DNA of 64,000 bases, taken from the NCBI RefSeq assembly GCF_001677475.2, contig NZ_CP012498.1; one strand, given 5' to 3'. The notes below the pieces were generated by a model. That model searched no databases. It was not told the origin of the DNA and worked only from the letters and a program-made list of their open reading frames with translations. How positions within the stretch are numbered: the stretch's first letter is position 1; every line of letters starts with the position of its first letter. Positions 40,231 through 45,245 of the stretch are shown piece after piece. A program made the translations under genes and the position numbers. The DNA is from Escherichia coli. Its GTDB lineage: Bacteria > Pseudomonadota > Gammaproteobacteria > Enterobacterales > Enterobacteriaceae.

Positions 40231-40566
40231 ATGTATCTTAAAATAAGAGATAGGCCTGGATATATGTCTGACACTGGTTCTAATTTTGAGATGGCTGGCG
40301 TTTTGTTAGGAAAAGAGGTGCGTAAACGTAAAACACCTCAGGAAAAAATCGCCATTATTCAACAGACTATGGAGCCTGGCATGACGGTGTCCCACGTGGC
40401 GCGTTTGCATGGAATTCAACCCAGTCTGTTGTTTAAGTGGAAAAAAATATCTGGAAGGAAGTCTCACTGCTGTTGCTGCCGGAGAAGACGTTGTTCCTGC
40501 TTCTGAACTGGCCGCTGCAATAAAGCAGATTAATCAGCTTCAGCGTTTACTGGGAAAGAAATCTAT
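40231..40566 (+). mobile_element. IS2-like (IS3 family) orfA, divergent copy, frameshifted and truncated by insertions
   Basis: [34 protein letters not shown] and [34 protein letters not shown] resemble IS2 OrfA but sit in two frames. Confidence 0.6.
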
Positions 40567-40640
40567 GGTCCCCACCATTTTTGCAACACTGATTTTGATT
40601 GATGTTGGCTTGCCTAAATCTATCCGGCGTCATTATGGGT

Positions 40641-41904
40641 GATCCTACCTTCGTAATATGGACACTGCTCTAAGCGAGGTTCTGGTTTTCAAATTGTTCC
40701 GGACTGAGGCCGCCACACCAACTGTGCCGTCGCCAGCGATTGTAATCACATTCGATATAATTAAACACTGTTGCCCGCATTATTTCCCGGCTGATAAAGT
40801 GTTCTCCGTGGAGACATTCCACTTTCAGCGAATGAAAGAAGCTTTCCACGCAGGCATTATCGTAGCAGCAGCCCTTTGCGCTCATACTGCCACGCAGATT
40901 ATGCCGCTTCAGCAGCGCCTGATAATCTGCTGAACAGTACTGGCTTCCGCGGTCCGAGTGAACGATAACGTTCCGGGGTCTCTTACGCCGCCACAGCGCC
41001 ATCTGCAGGGCATCGCAGGCCAGTTGCGCCGTCATGCGTGGCAACATTGACCAGCCAATAACGGCACGTGACCACAGGTCAATGACCACTGCCAGATACA
41101 GCCAGCCTTCATCTGTACGTAAGTACGTGATGTCTCCCGCCCACTTCTGGTTCGGACCACTGGCGTAAAAATCCTGCTCCAGCAGATTTTCTGACACAGG
41201 CAGGCCATGTGCGCGGTAACTGACCGGGCTGAACTTCCGGGAGGCCTTTGCCCTCATCCCCTGACGGCGCAGGCTTTCCGCCACAGTTTTTACGTTAAAG
41301 GGGTAACCCTGAGCACGCAGTTCATCCGTCAGGCGTGGTGCACCGTAACGCTGTTTTGACCGGGTAAAAGCCGCGAGGACAACGCTGTCGCAGTGCTGAC
41401 GGAACTGCTGACGAGGGCTTATCCTTGTCCGCCGCTGACACCACGTATACCAGCCGCTGCGGGCCACCCGGAGCACGCGGCACATAGCCTTGATGCTGAA
41501 CTCAGCCTGATGTTTTTCAATAAAGACATACTTCATTTCAGGCACTTCGCGAAGTATGTCGCGGCCTTTTGGAGGATAGCCAGCTCTTCATCCCGTTCTG
41601 CCAGCTGGCGTTTGAGACGTGCAATCTCGGTAGACATCTCCAGTTCACGTTCAGAAGACGTCTGCTGATTTTGCTGTTTACTGCGCCAGTTGTAGAGTTG
41701 TGATTCATACAGGCTGAGTTCACGGGCTGCGGCAGCAACACCGATGCGTTCAGCAAGCTTCAGGGCTTCACTGCGAAATTCAGGCGAATGCTGTTTACGT
41801 GTTTTTTTGCTGGTTGATACTGTTTTTGTCATGCGAGTCACCTCTGACTGAGAGTTTACTCACTTAGCCGCGTGTCCACTATTGCTGGGTAAGATCAGGG
41901 CATG
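40641..41904 (-). mobile_element. IS3 element, copy A (orfB 40670..41545, orfA 41533..41841), apparently intact
   Basis: OrfA MTKTVSTSKKTRKQHSPEFRSEALKLAERIGV... and Orf[33 protein letters not shown]... recalled as IS3; terminal repeats TGATCTTACCCAGCAATAGTGGACAC / TGATCCTACC present. Confidence 0.9.
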
Positions 41905-42095
41905 GATGCCCGCGTCTCGATGAGTTCCGCACCTGATGAGCCCAAAAAACCATCCGGCTTCAGTGAGCCATTTTCTTGCTGAGGCTTTTCATCAGGCCGA
42001 TATGCCGTTCATGTCATCAATAATCAGTCTTCGCAAAACCAGATTGGGAACTACTTTAATTCATGATTAACCTGCCAGCCAGACTGGCGCCATCG

Positions 42096-43148
42096 TTACC
42101 TTTCGAACACAGTCTGCTGTGTTGTGATTGCCCACGCTATCCGTGCTAATTTGTTGGCCAGTGCGCAACATACTACGCTGGAGTGTTTTCTTGCCAACAA
42201 CGCCCTGACCCAATCCGCCAACCTTCCTGAGTGATTCTCGATTCTCTGAATAAAGGATCTTGCGCACTGAACGAGTAACCGTCGCAAATTTTTATCTCCA
42301 CGTTTACTTATCCCTAAAAGTGTATTTTTACCACCTGTGCTGTACTGCCGGGGTACCAGACCGGTTGAAGCAGCAAAGTCCCGACTGCAGCTATATTGTT
42401 TACCGTCTCCCAGCTGCGATGGCAGTACGCTGGCGGTTATCGGACCAATACCGGGTATTGTCTGAAGACGTTGTCCTACCTCATCACGACTCAGTTCCTG
42501 CTCCAGTGCGATTTCAAGCTCGGTGATCTGTCCGACAAGATAAATATAATGGGCATGTAAGCGCATCAGTAACTGCGCCAGATAGGGAGGAAGTTCGTTC
42601 TCTGCAAGTACTGTTGAAAGTCGTTTTACCACTGCGACTCCTGTCGGCATACTGATGCCAAATTCCAGCAAAAAAGCATGCATCTGATTGGTCGTTTTGA
42701 CTTTATCACTGACCAATGATTCCCTGACCCGGTGAAGCGCCCGCATGGCCTGCTGAGCTTCTGTTCGTGGTTGCACAAATCGCATGGAGGGACGAGATGC
42801 CGCTTCGCATATGGCTTCTGCATCGACAAAATCGTTCTTGTTGCTCTTAACAAAAGGGCGAACGAACTGCGGAGAAATCAATTTTGCTTCATGACCTAAA
42901 TCAGCAATCCGGCGAGCCATAAAATGAGCTCCGGCGCAGGCTTCCATCACAACGGTAGACGAGGCACAGCCTGCCAGAAACTCAATAAGTTTGGTACGGG
43001 TAAACTTTTTACGCAGCAATACCTTGCCTGACTTATCTTGGCAGTGAATGTGAAAGGAATGCTTGCCAAGATCTATACCAATAAGCGTAATGTTTTGCAT
43101 GATGGTCTTCTCCATGAAAGAAAAACACTCTACCAGGGTACAGCTCAC
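42096..43148 (-). CDS. IS110-family transposase (350 aa), intact ORF
   Basis: N-terminal region with conserved acidic residues (IGIDLGKH ... MEACAGAH) and a C-terminal transposase domain typical of the IS110 family. Confidence 0.8.
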
Positions 43149-43175
43149 AGGGTGGTGGGGACCATCTCATTAACC

Positions 43176-44000
43176 ATGGAAGTTGAGATCCTCAAAGAAG
43201 CGGTGGAGTATGGTCAGTCGCGAAAATGGATAGCGCATGGGCCCTTGTTACCTTCGGACAAGGAATAGCCCCGGTAAGCCGTGTTCTGGGCGTGTCACGT
43301 GCGCAGTTAACATTACGGATGAAGTATCATTGGCGATATACCAGCATACGGGTATCGCCGGGTCTGGGCGATACTCAGGCGGCAGTCCCGAAATGAAGGA
43401 CTACCGTTCGTGAATGCAAAGCGCGTTTACCGGATAATGAGGGAAAATAGCCTGTTGTTGTTACATGACAAACCATCACGACCGCAGCGGGAACATAAAG
43501 GCCGAATATCGGTGAAGGAAAGCGACCAGCGTTGGTGTTCAGATGGCTTTGAGTTCGATTGCGATGATGGCGAAAAACTGCGTGTTACGTTCGCCCTGGA
43601 CTGTTGCGATCGTGAAGCCATAGACTGGGCCGCAAGCACGGGAGGTTACGATAAAGCGACAGTGCAGGATGTGATGTTAGGAGCGATAGAAAAACGCTTT
43701 GGCGATAAAGTACCGGAACAGTCCATCCAGTGGCTGACAGATAACGGTTCAGCGTACAGAGCGGTTCGCCAGAGCGTTGAATCTGGAGCCCTGCACGACG
43801 GCAGTCAGTAGCCCTCAGAGCAATGGAATGGCAGAAAGGTTCGTGAAAATGATGAATGAAGACTACATCGCGTTCATGCCGAAACCGAATGTAAGAACGG
43901 CATCAGAGTATCGAACATTACAATGAAAACCATCCGCACAGTGCGTTGGGTTATCGCTCTCCGCGAGAATATCGACGTCAGCGGGTAACGTTAACTTAAG
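43176..44000 (+). mobile_element. Remainder of the IS2-like element (orfA 3' end and orfB fragments)
   Basis: [30 protein letters not shown] continues the IS2-like Orf[19 protein letters not shown] ... is IS2 OrfB-like. Confidence 0.6.
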
Positions 44001-44006
44001 ATACAA

Positions 44007-45245
44007 CTGATCTTACCCAGCAATAGTGGACACGCGGCTAAGTGAGTAAACTCTCAGTCAGAGGTGACTCACATGACAAAATCTGTATCAACCAGTAAAA
44101 AAACACGTAAACAGCATTCGCCTGAATTTCGCAGTGAAGTCCTGAAACTTGCTGAACGCATCGGTGTTGCTGCCGCAGCCCGTGAACTCAGCCTGTATGA
44201 ATCACAGCTCTACAACTGGCGCAGTAAACAGCAACATCAGCAGACTTCTTCTGAACGTGAGCTGGAGATGTCCACCGAGATTGCACGTTTCAAACGCCAG
44301 CTGGCAGAACGGGATGAAGAGCTGGCCATCCTCCAAAAGGCCGCGACATACTTCGCGAAGCGCCTGAAATGAAGTATGTCTTTATTGAAAAACATCAGGC
44401 TGAGTTCAGCATCAAGGCTATGTGCCGCGTGCTCCGGGTGGCCCGCAGCGGCTGGTATACGTGGTGCCAACGGCGTACAAGGATAAGCAAGCGTCAGCAC
44501 TGCGACAGCGTTGTCCGTGAGGCTTTTACACGGTCAAAACAGCGTTACGGTGCACCACGCCTGACGGATGAACTGCGTGTTCAGGGTTACCACTTTAACG
44601 TAAAAACCGTGGCGGAAAGCCTGCGCCGTCAGGGGCTGAGGGCAAAGGCCTCCCGGAAGTTCAGCCCGGTCAGTTACCGCGCACATGGCCTGCCTGTGTC
44701 AGAAAATCTGCTGGAGCAGGATTTTTACGCCAGTGGTCCGAACCAGAAGTGGGCGGGAGACATCACGTACTTACGTACAGATGAAGGCTGGCTGTATCTG
44801 GCAGTGGTCATTGACCTGTGGTCACGTGCCGTTATTGGCTGGTCAATGTTGCCACGCATGACGGCGCAACTGGCCTGCGATGCCCTGCAGATGGCGCTGT
44901 GGCGGCGTAAGAGCTCCAGGAACGTTATCGTTCACACGGACCGCGGAAGCCAGTACTGTTCATCAGATTATCAGGCGCTGCTGAAGCGGCATAATCTGCG
45001 TGGCAGTATGAGCGCAAAAGGATGCTGCTACGATAATACCTGCGTGGAAAGCTTCTTTCATCCGCTGAAAGTGGAATATCTCCACGGAGAACACTTTCGG
45101 GAAATAATGCGGGCAACAGTGTTTAATTATATCAAATGTGATTACAATCGCTGGCGACGGCACAGTAGGTGTGGTGGTCTCAGTCCGGAACAATTTGAAA
45201 ACCAGAACCTCGCTTAGAGCTGTGTCCATATTACGAGGGTAGGAT
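44007..45245 (+). mobile_element. IS3 element, copy B (orfA 44064..44372, orfB 44369..45217)
   Basis: Near-identical proteins to copy A in the opposite orientation; both terminal repeats recognisable. Confidence 0.9.

What the first reader, a model, noticed from the sequence alone, without database searches (positions are those of the whole stretch)
40231..45245. Layered IS nesting: an IS2-like element interrupted by an IS110-family element, itself hit by IS3, with a second inverted IS3 copy nearby
The IS2-like orfA breaks at 40566 and resumes at 43176; the intervening DNA is an IS110-family element whose 3' flank was then split by IS3 copy A. IS3 copy B lies 2.1 kb away in the opposite orientation, so the two IS3 copies form an inverted pair that could mediate inversion of the intervening segment. 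The region records at least three successive transposition events.
Basis: seen in the sequence. Interest (0 to 1): 0.35.

Follow-up and report, generated by a model that had tools for sequence, protein, structure and literature searches.

The report
Three-deep nest of insertion sequences
A dead IS2-like insertion sequence on a large Escherichia plasmid carries an RNA-guided IS110/IS1111-type element, which was itself hit by an IS3; the nesting is real but is ordinary mobile-element debris, not a new system.

Summary
Window 40199-45280 is one decayed ISEc48-like (IS2-group) element. An IS1111-type, IS110-family element of 1350 bp (40562-43172, minus strand) sits in its orfA. Its transposase is about 90% identical to one a source labels IS1328 and 80% to ISSfl8. 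IS3 copy A (40640-41897, 1258 bp, GGG duplication) lies in that element's 3' non-coding region. IS3 copy B (44008-45247, 1240 bp, CAAC duplication) lies in the right inverted repeat of the ISEc48-like element, in the opposite orientation and 2110 bp away. Every junction rebuilds a contiguous parent when compared with uninterrupted copies in other plasmids.

The middle insertion is not random. Near-identical copies (99.0-99.5%) sit at the same orfA site in three ISEc48-like hosts that are only 78-87% alike. Two short loop segments of the non-coding RNA match the target (CCATGGT^TTTCTT). These segments change with the target across 28 related guide classes, as published for seekRNA/bridge RNA.

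The two IS3 copies differ by 3.5% plus 18 bp of deletions. Both keep matched duplications. Ten independent assemblies show the same order, five of them across both copies, so nothing indicates inversion.

Interest is low. The closest precedent is ISEc21, which targets IS3-family transposase genes.

The parts
40199..40561 (+). ISEc48-like (IS2-group, IS3-family) element, left segment. It holds the left inverted repeat (TGAACTGGCCCCCCTGAAATACCAGACAG...) and the 5' part of orfA, which is frameshifted at ...KWKK|.
   Evidence: 95.7% to the intact element annotated 'IS3-like element ISEc48 family transposase' (L003 1332-1847). NCBIfam 'IS2 repressor TnpA' 61 bits, below cut-off. Sequence read; translation.
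40562..40639 (-). IS1111-type (IS1328/ISSfl8-like) element, right-end segment of 78 bp. It holds the 3-bp terminal extension (TCT on the + strand, 40562-40564), the 13-bp subterminal inverted repeat (40565-40577) and the 3' half of the second conserved RNA stem-loop (40612-40639). Positions 40637-40639 are one copy of the IS3 A duplication (GGG).
   Evidence: Contiguous with 41901-43172 in L001 and L002. End convention from PMC11187229. Ends conserved in about 50 related loci.
40640..41897 (-). IS3 copy A, 1258 bp. orfA (99 aa) and orfB (288 aa) are full length. It is flanked by a 3-bp duplication, GGG (40637-40639 and 41898-41900).
   Evidence: Empty site in L001: window 40199-40639 and 41898-43305 map to L001 3001-3440 and 3438-4845, a 3-bp overlap. 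96.6% to the annotated IS3 in L002. 99.4% to an 'IS3 family transposase' element on related ~225-kb plasmids. NCBIfam NF033516, 342 bits. Gene lengths.
41898..43172 (-). IS1111-type element, main segment. It holds the left end (7-bp extension, CTCATTA on the + strand, 43166-43172; subterminal repeat 43153-43165), the transposase gene 42096-43100 (334 aa plus stop) and the first 195 nt of the 273-nt 3' non-coding region.
   Evidence: NF033542 'IS110 family RNA-guided transposase', 347 bits against cut-off 140. Pfam DEDD_Tnp_IS110 and Transposase_20. 99.5% and 99.0% over 1350 bp to L001 and L002. Same 90% protein cluster as a Yersinia protein labelled IS1328 transposase. 80% amino-acid identity to ISSfl8.
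41931..41997 (-). Predicted seekRNA/bridge-RNA target-binding module: an outer stem, two internal-loop guides and an inner hairpin. Guide 1 is CAAGAAAA (41971-41978, pairs with the target top strand). Guide 2 is ATGGTTTT (41946-41953, pairs with the bottom strand).
   Evidence: Guides match the target CCATGGT^TTTCTT. They covary with the target in the Salmonella relative, in ISSfl8 and across 28 guide classes (13.8 of 16 positions against 8.45 +/- 0.41 when permuted; 0 of 10000 permutations as high). Stems supported by compensatory changes.
41898..41930 (-). 5' half of the second conserved stem-loop (CTCATCG-GACGC-GGGCATCCATGCCC). IS3 A is inserted immediately 3' of the hairpin, cutting this half off from its partner strand at 40612-40639.
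   Evidence: Alignment A1 columns 84-143. Helix 7 (the hairpin) has 4 of 4 pairs with changes on both sides. Helix 6 is invariant. Insertion point read.
43173..44007 (+). ISEc48-like element, middle segment: the 3' part of orfA and decayed orfB (80-bp deletion near 43305-43325, plus frameshifts). Positions 44004-44007 are one copy of the IS3 B duplication (CAAC).
   Evidence: Colinear with L003 and L001. NCBIfam 'IS2 transposase TnpB' 190 bits, below cut-off 597. Translation.
44008..45247 (+). IS3 copy B, 1240 bp, a decayed copy. orfA is 99 aa. orfB is 282 aa because of in-frame 12-bp and 6-bp deletions. It is flanked by a 4-bp duplication, CAAC (44004-44007 and 45248-45251).
   Evidence: The intact ISEc48 reads GATACAACCCCTGTCTGG; the window reads GATACAAC[IS3 B]CAACCCCTGTCTGG. 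96.45% to copy A and 95.1% to the annotated IS3. Best full-length match in complete E. coli genomes is 95.3%.
45248..45280 (+). ISEc48-like element, right terminal segment (right inverted repeat, ...CTGTCTGGAAATAAGGGGGCAAGAACA).
   Evidence: Matches the right end of L003 and L002 7179-7219 at 100%. No target duplication for the whole element: AATGT on the left, CCAGA on the right.

Best explanation
The region is a fossil record of four transposition events on a large IncF-type Escherichia plasmid.

1. An ISEc48-like (IS2-group) element came to lie at 40199-45280. It is now a pseudogene.
2. A 1350-bp IS1111-type element of the IS110 family inserted between the Lys and Thr codons of ...LLGKK^TMEVE... 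in orfA, with no target duplication. Insertion there is sequence-specific. A non-coding RNA made from the 273-nt region downstream of the DEDD transposase gene carries two internal-loop guides, CAAGAAAA and ATGGTTTT. These pair with the two strands of the target CCATGGT^TTTCTT, as shown experimentally for seekRNA/bridge RNAs of other IS1111 and IS110 members.
3. A variant IS3 (copy A) then inserted 78 bp from the right end of that element, with a GGG duplication. It lies just downstream of the target-binding RNA module and inside a second conserved stem-loop.
4. Independently, another IS3 (copy B, now decayed) inserted into the right inverted repeat of the ISEc48-like element, with a CAAC duplication.

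The anatomy, junctions, duplications, recurrence at one site and guide-target covariation are shown. RNA guidance in this particular element, and the effect of IS3 A on its mobility, are inferred. The nest is inert debris with no apparent role for the host.
For: - Anatomy and families.
- Empty sites and duplications.
  - IS3 A: 3-bp overlap in L001.
  - IS1111-type element: uninterrupted ISEc48 reads AAGAAA^ACCATGG.
  - IS3 B.
- Reconstructed parents align end to end.
- IS1111-group hallmarks: 13-bp subterminal repeats, 7-bp and 3-bp terminal extensions, a long 3' non-coding region and no duplication, matching PMC11187229.
- Site specificity.
  - 65 E. coli records hold at least 80% of the element; 62 hold at least 80% of the element plus ISEc48-like flanks.
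  - No other context appeared among plasmids.
  - Inserts are 99.0-99.5% identical, while the 200-bp left flanks are 78-87% identical among three hosts.
- Guides.
  - They match the target.
  - Both segments differ in the 74%-identical Salmonella relative and in ISSfl8, exactly as their targets differ.
  - Across 28 guide classes, 13.8 of 16 positions match, against 8.45 +/- 0.41 when guides and targets are permuted; 0 of 10000 permutations were as high.
- RNA structure: 97.4% of cells paired, 12 pairs with compensatory changes, 0 of 500 shuffles as high.
- Stability: 10 assemblies colinear at 99.94% or more.
Against: - No experiment or RNA data exist for this element. The guide assignment rests on covariation and on analogy with ISEc11, ISPa11 and ISKpn4.
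- The ISEc48-like element has no target duplication (AATGT against CCAGA), so its own arrival by simple transposition at this spot is not shown. Its flanks are other IS fragments and may have been rearranged.
- The right flank next to the IS1111-type element is identical for about 68 bp between the window and L001. Some shared ancestry or recombination between those two copies therefore cannot be excluded.
- The single-sequence fold is only modestly better than shuffles (z = -1.36).
- Rfam 15 returned no match to the element.
Confidence: 0.88

Rival explanations
1. The ISEc48-like element arrived in this plasmid already carrying the IS1111-type element, by recombination or by mobilisation in trans. 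On this view only the IS3 hits happened in place, and the nest records events from more than one replicon.
For: The same composite exists on other plasmids and on two chromosomes. The window copy has no target duplication and is embedded in other IS fragments. The proximal right flank is identical to L001 for about 68 bp.
Against: The left flank differs from L001 from 5 bp outside the junction and by 13.5% over 200 bp, so the window copy is not simply the L001 composite. This rival does not alter the order of events or the mechanism; it changes only where step 2 took place.
Confidence: 0.35
2. The inverted IS3 pair is a functional unit: either an invertible segment or a composite transposon carrying the 2.1-kb segment between the copies.
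For: Two inverted repeats of about 1.25 kb, 2110 bp apart. IS3 A has full-length orfA and orfB.
Against: - The copies differ by 3.5% plus 18 bp of deletions.
- Each copy has its own matched duplication (GGG; CAAC), so each inserted separately and no exchange between them has been fixed.
- Five assemblies that span both copies share one orientation.
- The intervening DNA is only a transposase gene and a dead orfB, with no promoter-gene pair to switch.
- No plasmid or complete E. coli genome carries the unit elsewhere.
Confidence: 0.05
3. The IS1111-type element occupies the same orfA site in different ISEc48-like copies because homologous recombination or gene conversion spread one ancestral insertion, not because of targeted transposition.
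For: ISEc48-like copies share enough identity to recombine. The right flank is shared by the window and L001.
Against: Flank divergence begins within a few bases of the junction on the left side (window against L001 and L002) and about 22 bp from it on the right side (window against L002). A crossover inside the element would need both partners to carry it already. Relatives with other targets have correspondingly different guides, which conversion does not explain.
Confidence: 0.05
4. The nesting is an assembly artefact, with repeats joined wrongly.
For: IS-rich regions are prone to misassembly. The window has one homopolymer difference from other assemblies at about 47346.
Against: Ten independent assemblies give the same order at 99.94-100% identity, five of them across the whole nest. 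Every junction carries the expected duplication.
Confidence: 0.01

Closest known systems
ISEc21 (IS110 family), which inserts into a conserved codon block of IS3-family transposase genes (Siddiquee et al. 2024, PMC11187229)
   Same: An RNA-guided DEDD-transposase IS whose natural target is a coding sequence of another (IS3-family) IS. No duplication; orientation-specific insertion.
   Different: ISEc21 belongs to the IS110 group, with its non-coding RNA upstream and the reverse guide order. [quoted passage not shown] The element here belongs to the IS1111 group, with its RNA downstream, and hits orfA of ISEc48-like elements.
ISEc11, ISPa11 and ISKpn4 (IS1111 family; seekRNA shown experimentally)
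   Same: Subterminal inverted repeats. A 7-bp left terminal extension (stated for ISEc11; the 3-bp right extension is from my memory of the ISEc11 description). A long 3' non-coding region. The top-strand match lies 5' of the bottom-strand match, and the two matches overlap at the insertion point. A -35 box (TTGCAA) in the right end and a -10 box (GA|TAAT) would be formed only at a circle junction; this last point is read from the sequence and is an inference.
   Different: About 35-40% amino-acid identity to TnpEc11 (against the ISEc11-like copy elsewhere in the window). Different target. No experimental data for this element.
ISSfl8 (NCBI annotation name) and IS1328 (a source's label for a transposase in the same 90% cluster)
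   Same: 334-aa transposase, element of about 1350 bp, the same end sequences and the same RNA scaffold.
   Different: 80% amino-acid identity to ISSfl8, which targets GTGGGGA^TTTCATCT in a DUF4942 gene using guides AGATGAAA and GGGGATTT. About 90% to the Yersinia protein. NCBI names the element here only 'IS110 family (RNA-guided) transposase'. Its ISfinder name, if it has one, could not be checked.
[quoted passage not shown]
   Same: An IS1111 member that uses another mobile element as its specific landing site.
   Different: Those target a non-coding transposon end. Here the target is inside a transposase-regulator gene (orfA). Known to me from the literature and cited in the reference list seen; not tested here.
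IS621 bridge RNA (Durrant et al. 2024, PMC11208160)
   Same: Two-loop RNA logic. That paper predicts bridge RNAs in the right end of 93% of IS1111 elements. The element here has two conserved stem-loop modules.
   Different: Only the target-binding module is supported by covariation here. The proposed donor-matching segments (CTCAT, ATAGAT) are invariant, so they cannot be tested. For ISEc11, the short RNA carrying the target matches alone sufficed.
IS3 and ISEc48/IS2 (IS3 family)
   Same: Lengths, TG...CA ends, orfA/orfB layout and a 3-bp duplication (copy A).
   Different: Copy A is 96.6% and copy B 95.1% identical to the annotated IS3. Copy B has a 4-bp duplication and in-frame deletions. 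The ISEc48-like copy is a pseudogene without a duplication.

Membership tests
IS110 family, IS1111 group | DEDD (RuvC-like) transposase with the Transposase_20 C-terminal domain | tested here: met
   NF033542, 347 bits against cut-off 140. Pfam PF01548 and PF02371 on the identical protein. Intact 334-aa ORF.
IS110 family, IS1111 group | Subterminal inverted repeats with short terminal extensions | tested here: met
   The 13-bp repeat ATGGTCCCCACCA lies at 40565-40577 and 43153-43165. Extensions are TAATGAG (7 bp) and AGA (3 bp). The same ends occur in about 50 related loci.
IS110 family, IS1111 group | Long non-coding region downstream of the transposase gene | tested here: met
   273 nt downstream against 72 nt upstream of the start codon.
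IS110 family, IS1111 group | Insertion without target-site duplication at one specific sequence and in one orientation | tested here: met
   Empty site AAGAAA^ACCATGG in L003 compared with occupied sites. 62 of 65 E. coli records with the element also carry the ISEc48-like flanks. Three diverged hosts share the same site.
IS110 family, IS1111 group | seekRNA/bridge RNA whose loop segments pair with both target strands, with the top-strand match 5' of the bottom-strand match | tested here: met
   Sequence match. Covariation with the target across 28 guide classes and in the named relatives. Stems supported by covariation. The RNA itself was not observed.
IS110 family, IS1111 group | Circular intermediate with a promoter assembled at the junction | not testable with these tools
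   Joining the ends would create TTGCAA-17 nt-GATAAT. This is read from the sequence only and is an inference.
IS3 (IS3 family, IS3 group) | About 1258 bp, TGATC...GATCA ends, orfA (99 aa) and orfB (288 aa), DDE transposase | tested here: met
   Copy A is 1258 bp with ORFs of 99 and 288 aa. Copy B is 1240 bp with ORFs of 99 and 282 aa. NF033516, 342 and 323 bits.
IS3 (IS3 family, IS3 group) | 3-bp target duplication | tested here: inconclusive
   Copy A: GGG, 3 bp. Copy B: CAAC, 4 bp, shown against the intact ISEc48 sequence.
IS3 (IS3 family, IS3 group) | Identity of 95% or more to IS3 itself (the ISfinder isoform rule, from memory) | tested here: inconclusive
   A is 96.6% and B 95.1% (gaps excluded) to an element annotated 'IS3-like element IS3 family'. 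NCBI annotation names the closest relatives of A only 'IS3 family transposase'.
ISEc48 / IS2 group of the IS3 family | Colinear identity to an ISEc48-annotated element, including both inverted repeats | tested here: met
   93-96% over 1227 bp to L003 1332-2667, with both ends present.
ISEc48 / IS2 group of the IS3 family | Intact orfA/orfB and a flanking target duplication (evidence of an active, simple insertion) | tested here: not met
   Frameshift in orfA, 80-bp deletion and frameshifts in orfB. Flanks are AATGT and CCAGA. This copy is a relic.

The most novel reading that the evidence does not exclude
The IS1328/ISSfl8-like element may be a dedicated RNA-guided 'parasite of a parasite'. 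On this reading its guide pair has been tuned to a conserved codon block (KK^TME) of ISEc48-family orfA. That gives it a harmless landing site present wherever ISEc48-like elements spread, and incidentally disables them. On the same reading, the strongly conserved second stem-loop that IS3 A has split is a donor-recognition module that this subfamily needs, although ISEc11 does not. The window would then hold a natural knock-out of that module beside an intact transposase and target module.
Probability: 0.25. Interest if true: 0.35.

Novelty: new member of a known kind. Interest (0 to 1): 0.2.

Why it matters
The finding matters little in itself. Nested insertion sequences are commonplace on large enterobacterial plasmids, and this nest has no evident effect on host genes.

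Its modest value has three parts:
- It gives a clean natural example of an IS1111-group element whose RNA guides are aimed at another insertion sequence. Only one comparable case, ISEc21, was found in the papers read here.
- The family collected here is a ready-made set of natural reprogramming examples. It has 28 guide classes on one conserved RNA scaffold, and the targets can be read from the flanks.
- The element lies on clinically relevant plasmids, including pAA of E. coli O104:H4. Its fixed position could serve as a lineage marker.

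Tried and rejected
- Rfam 15 scan of the intact element in L001. No bridge-RNA or seekRNA family matched. The only hit was a sub-threshold psRNA2 match that starts in the last ~44 bp of the host ISEc48-like element and runs into the plasmid flank, outside the IS1111-type element.
- Search for the whole 6.1-kb arrangement or an inverted isomer in PLSDB plasmids and complete E. coli genomes. No place covered 80% or more. The arrangement was then found by exact-protein look-up in draft assemblies.
- The ETEC plasmids that seemed to share an inverted IS3 pair (pETEC_80) proved unrelated. 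They have canonical IS3 copies around other genes, and only an IS91-type fragment is shared.
- Target duplication for the ISEc48-like element: none found.
- About 190 E. coli records match only the right-end 230 bp, which suggested orphan seekRNA loci. This was rejected: they are complete ISSfl8 copies whose coding part is too diverged for megablast.
- Donor-guide idea (CTCAT and ATAGAT matching the circle junction CCATAGA^TAATGAG). It cannot be tested, because both the guides and the ends are almost invariant. The few left-end variants (TAATGGG, TAATGTG) are not accompanied by guide changes.
- Unoccupied target sites in the window: none beyond chance.
- Promoter and terminator scan of the element: nothing above shuffled expectation.
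- ISfinder name. It cannot be looked up here, and the sequence file of PMC11187229 holds only ISAzvi4 as the nearest representative.

Full report
**Observation**

Two inverted arms of about 1.25 kb lie at 40639-41898 and 44007-45248. They are 96-97% identical and 2108 nt apart. A 350-aa minus-strand ORF lies between them, and IS2-like reading frames sit on either side. NCBIfam gives these scores:
- IS110 family RNA-guided transposase for the middle ORF, 347 bits against a cut-off of 140.
- IS3 family transposase for both repeat ORFs, 342 and 323 bits against 160.
- IS2 TnpA and TnpB for the outer fragments, below cut-off because the genes are broken.

**Junctions**

Comparison with plasmid NZ_CP012500.1 (L001) provides an empty site for IS3 copy A. 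Window 40199-40639 and 41898-43305 map to L001 3001-3440 and 3438-4845. The 3-bp overlap means IS3 A is 40640-41897 with a GGG duplication.

An intact element annotated 'IS3-like element ISEc48 family transposase' (NZ_CP049351.1, L003) provides the other two empty sites:
- It reads CTGGGTAAGAAA^ACCATGGAAG where the window holds the IS110-family element.
- It reads GATACAACCCCTGTCTGG where the window reads GATACAAC[IS3 B]CAACCCCTGTCTGG. IS3 B is therefore 44008-45247 with a 4-bp CAAC duplication.

After removal of the inserts in silico, the 1350-bp IS110-family element aligns end to end with L001 at 99.5%. The 1227-bp outer element aligns colinearly with L003 at 93-96%.

The outer element runs from 40199 (TGAACTGGCCCCCC...) to 45280 (...GGGGGCAAGAACA). 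It is a pseudogene, with a frameshift in orfA, an 80-bp deletion and further frameshifts in orfB. It has no target duplication: AATGT on the left and CCAGA on the right.

**The middle element belongs to the IS1111 group**

In the transposase orientation it starts TAATGAG-ATGGTCCCCACCA and ends TGGTGGGGACCAT-AGA. That is a 13-bp subterminal inverted repeat with 7-bp and 3-bp terminal extensions. It has 72 nt before the start codon and 273 nt after the stop codon, and it makes no duplication. Siddiquee et al. list subterminal repeats, a long downstream non-coding region, a 7-bp left extension and no added bases as features of the IS1111 family (PMC11187229).

Its 334-aa transposase lies in the same 90% cluster as a Yersinia protein that a source labels IS1328 transposase. 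It is 80% identical to ISSfl8. NCBI annotation gives it no specific name.

**The insertion is site-specific**

- In complete E. coli genomes, 65 records hold at least 80% of the element, and 62 hold at least 80% of the element plus 200-bp ISEc48-like flanks.
- In PLSDB no other context appeared.
- The window, L001 and a pAA plasmid (L002) carry inserts that are 99.0-99.5% identical. Their 200-bp left flanks are only 78-87% identical to one another.
- Divergence starts within a few bases of the left junction.
- The simplest reading is three independent insertions into diverged hosts, and at least two. The window and L001 share about 68 identical bases on the right side.

**Mechanism**

Two segments of the downstream non-coding region match the target CCATGGT^TTTCTT:
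- CAAGAAAA at window 41971-41978. Seven of its eight bases (AAGAAAA) are identical to the bottom strand, so it pairs with the top strand.
- ATGGTTTT at window 41946-41953. It is identical to the top strand.

The top-strand match is 5' of the bottom-strand match and the two overlap at the insertion point. Both features were reported for ISEc11, ISPa11 and ISKpn4.

Relatives with other targets carry correspondingly different guides:
- A Salmonella plasmid relative (74% nucleotide identity) has inserted at GGGCT^TTGTTGAC. It carries CAACAAA and AGGGCTTT at the same two positions, while the surrounding scaffold is about 90% conserved.
- ISSfl8, inserted at GTGGGGA^TTTCATCT, carries AGATGAAA and GGGGATTT.
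- A scan of 100,044 species genomes gave 80 related loci. Of these, 50 yielded usable ends and flanks; with the window and L004 they form 28 guide classes. The two segments match the flanks at 13.8 of 16 positions, against 8.45 +/- 0.41 when guides and targets are permuted; 0 of 10000 permutations were as high.

RNAalifold on 26 distinct sequences gives two modules:
- Module 1 is an outer stem enclosing the two guide-bearing internal loops and an inner hairpin.
- Module 2 is a second stem-loop.

In the pair count, 97.4% of cells are paired and 12 pairs show compensatory changes. No shuffle out of 500 reached the observed value, and slid registers collapse to 24-41% paired. I take RNA-guided targeting as well supported by comparative evidence, though it has not been observed experimentally for this element.

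**What IS3 A did**

IS3 A lies 198 nt after the stop codon and 78 bp from the right end. That places it just 3' of the hairpin GGGCAT-CC-ATGCCC and before the strand GACGCC that closes module 2 (alignment columns 118|119). The transposase ORF, both ends and module 1 are intact.

Whether the element is disabled is uncertain:
- Module 2 is almost invariant and its hairpin covaries, which argues for a function.
- For ISEc11, however, the short RNA carrying the target matches alone supported movement, and a 745-bp cargo placed 46 bp from the right end was tolerated.

**The two IS3 copies**

- Copy A is 1258 bp with full-length ORFs of 99 and 288 aa. It is 96.6% identical to the annotated IS3, and 99.4% identical to a variant on related ~225-kb plasmids.
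- Copy B is 1240 bp, with in-frame 12-bp and 6-bp deletions. It is 96.45% identical to A, and its best full-length match in complete genomes is 95.3%.
- They are therefore not recent sister copies.
- Each has its own matched duplication, and the flanks of A are contiguous in L001. No exchange between the copies has been fixed.

The same 13-kb arrangement is colinear at 99.94-100% in ten draft assemblies, five of which span both copies. Inversion remains possible in principle, but nothing supports it, and the intervening DNA holds nothing to switch.

**Context**

The window backbone resembles ~225-kb IncF plasmids that carry a type VI secretion cluster. The nest sits in a wider field of IS debris:
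- a full IS630 at 38218-39380;
- an IS91-type fragment at 45281-45583;
- an IS630-like fragment at 45583-45714;
- a second, inverted ISEc48-like left end at 45713-45787.

**Comparison and verdict**

The closest precedent is ISEc21, an IS110-group element whose natural target is a codon block in IS3-family transposase genes. The element here is the IS1111-group counterpart, aimed at orfA of ISEc48-like elements. The nest itself is ordinary. The middle element is a new (or at least unnamed in the sources I could reach) member of a well-understood kind. I score interest at 0.2.

Noticed in passing
window 11750-12900 (+), with 11335-11384: A second IS1111-family element, ISEc11-like. Its transposase is split into two overlapping ORFs (11804-12595 and 12406-12819), so it is probably frameshifted. 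It lies inside a type VI secretion gene region, with a short IS3-family orfA-like remnant just upstream.
   Followed up: partly
L003 about 1316-1331 and 2668-2683; L001 about 2986-2998 and 5702-5714: The intact ISEc48 copy is flanked by a 16-bp direct repeat (TTCTTTGTGCGACCGT). The L001 copy is flanked by a 13-bp repeat (TATATACATCAAT). From memory, IS2-group elements duplicate about 5 bp, so these are much longer than expected. This could reflect an unusual duplication length or a repeated target.
   Followed up: no
window 45281-45787: Three abutting IS fragments: an IS91-type orf121-like piece (94% to pETEC_80), an IS630-like piece (81% to the full IS630 at 38218-39380) and an inverted ISEc48-like left end. 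The same IS630-like and ISEc48-like end pieces lie next to the aar gene in an EAEC pAA plasmid (L002 5058-5247).
   Followed up: partly
window 47213-47956 (-), indel near 47346: This AraC-family gene encodes 247 aa here but 274 aa in three other assemblies checked. The window lacks one G relative to them. This is either a real frameshift or a sequencing error.
   Followed up: partly
window 39397-39870 (-): A 157-aa ORF with a weak match to the YopT-type cysteine protease / Peptidase_C58 domain, possibly a truncated effector gene, lying between IS630 and the nest.
   Followed up: no
L097 and L098 (E. coli chromosomes), 2501-3860: ISSfl8, the closest relative with a specific NCBI annotation name, is inserted in a DUF4942 gene near a cbtA toxin-antitoxin island. 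About 190 E. coli records gave the same 85-87% match confined to the right-end 230 bp; two of them were inspected. Only the non-coding RNA region is conserved enough (85-87%) to be found by megablast, while the coding part is about 75% identical. The RNA scaffold thus evolves more slowly than the gene.
   Followed up: yes
window 36100-37560 (-): Another nesting. IS911-like orfA and orfB reading frames are fused downstream of an IS481-like N-terminal ORF (233-aa ORF at 36851-37552), which suggests an IS911-type element inserted into a different IS.
   Followed up: no
window 21409-21690: An isolated 282-bp fragment, 87% identical to the 3' part of IS3.
   Followed up: no
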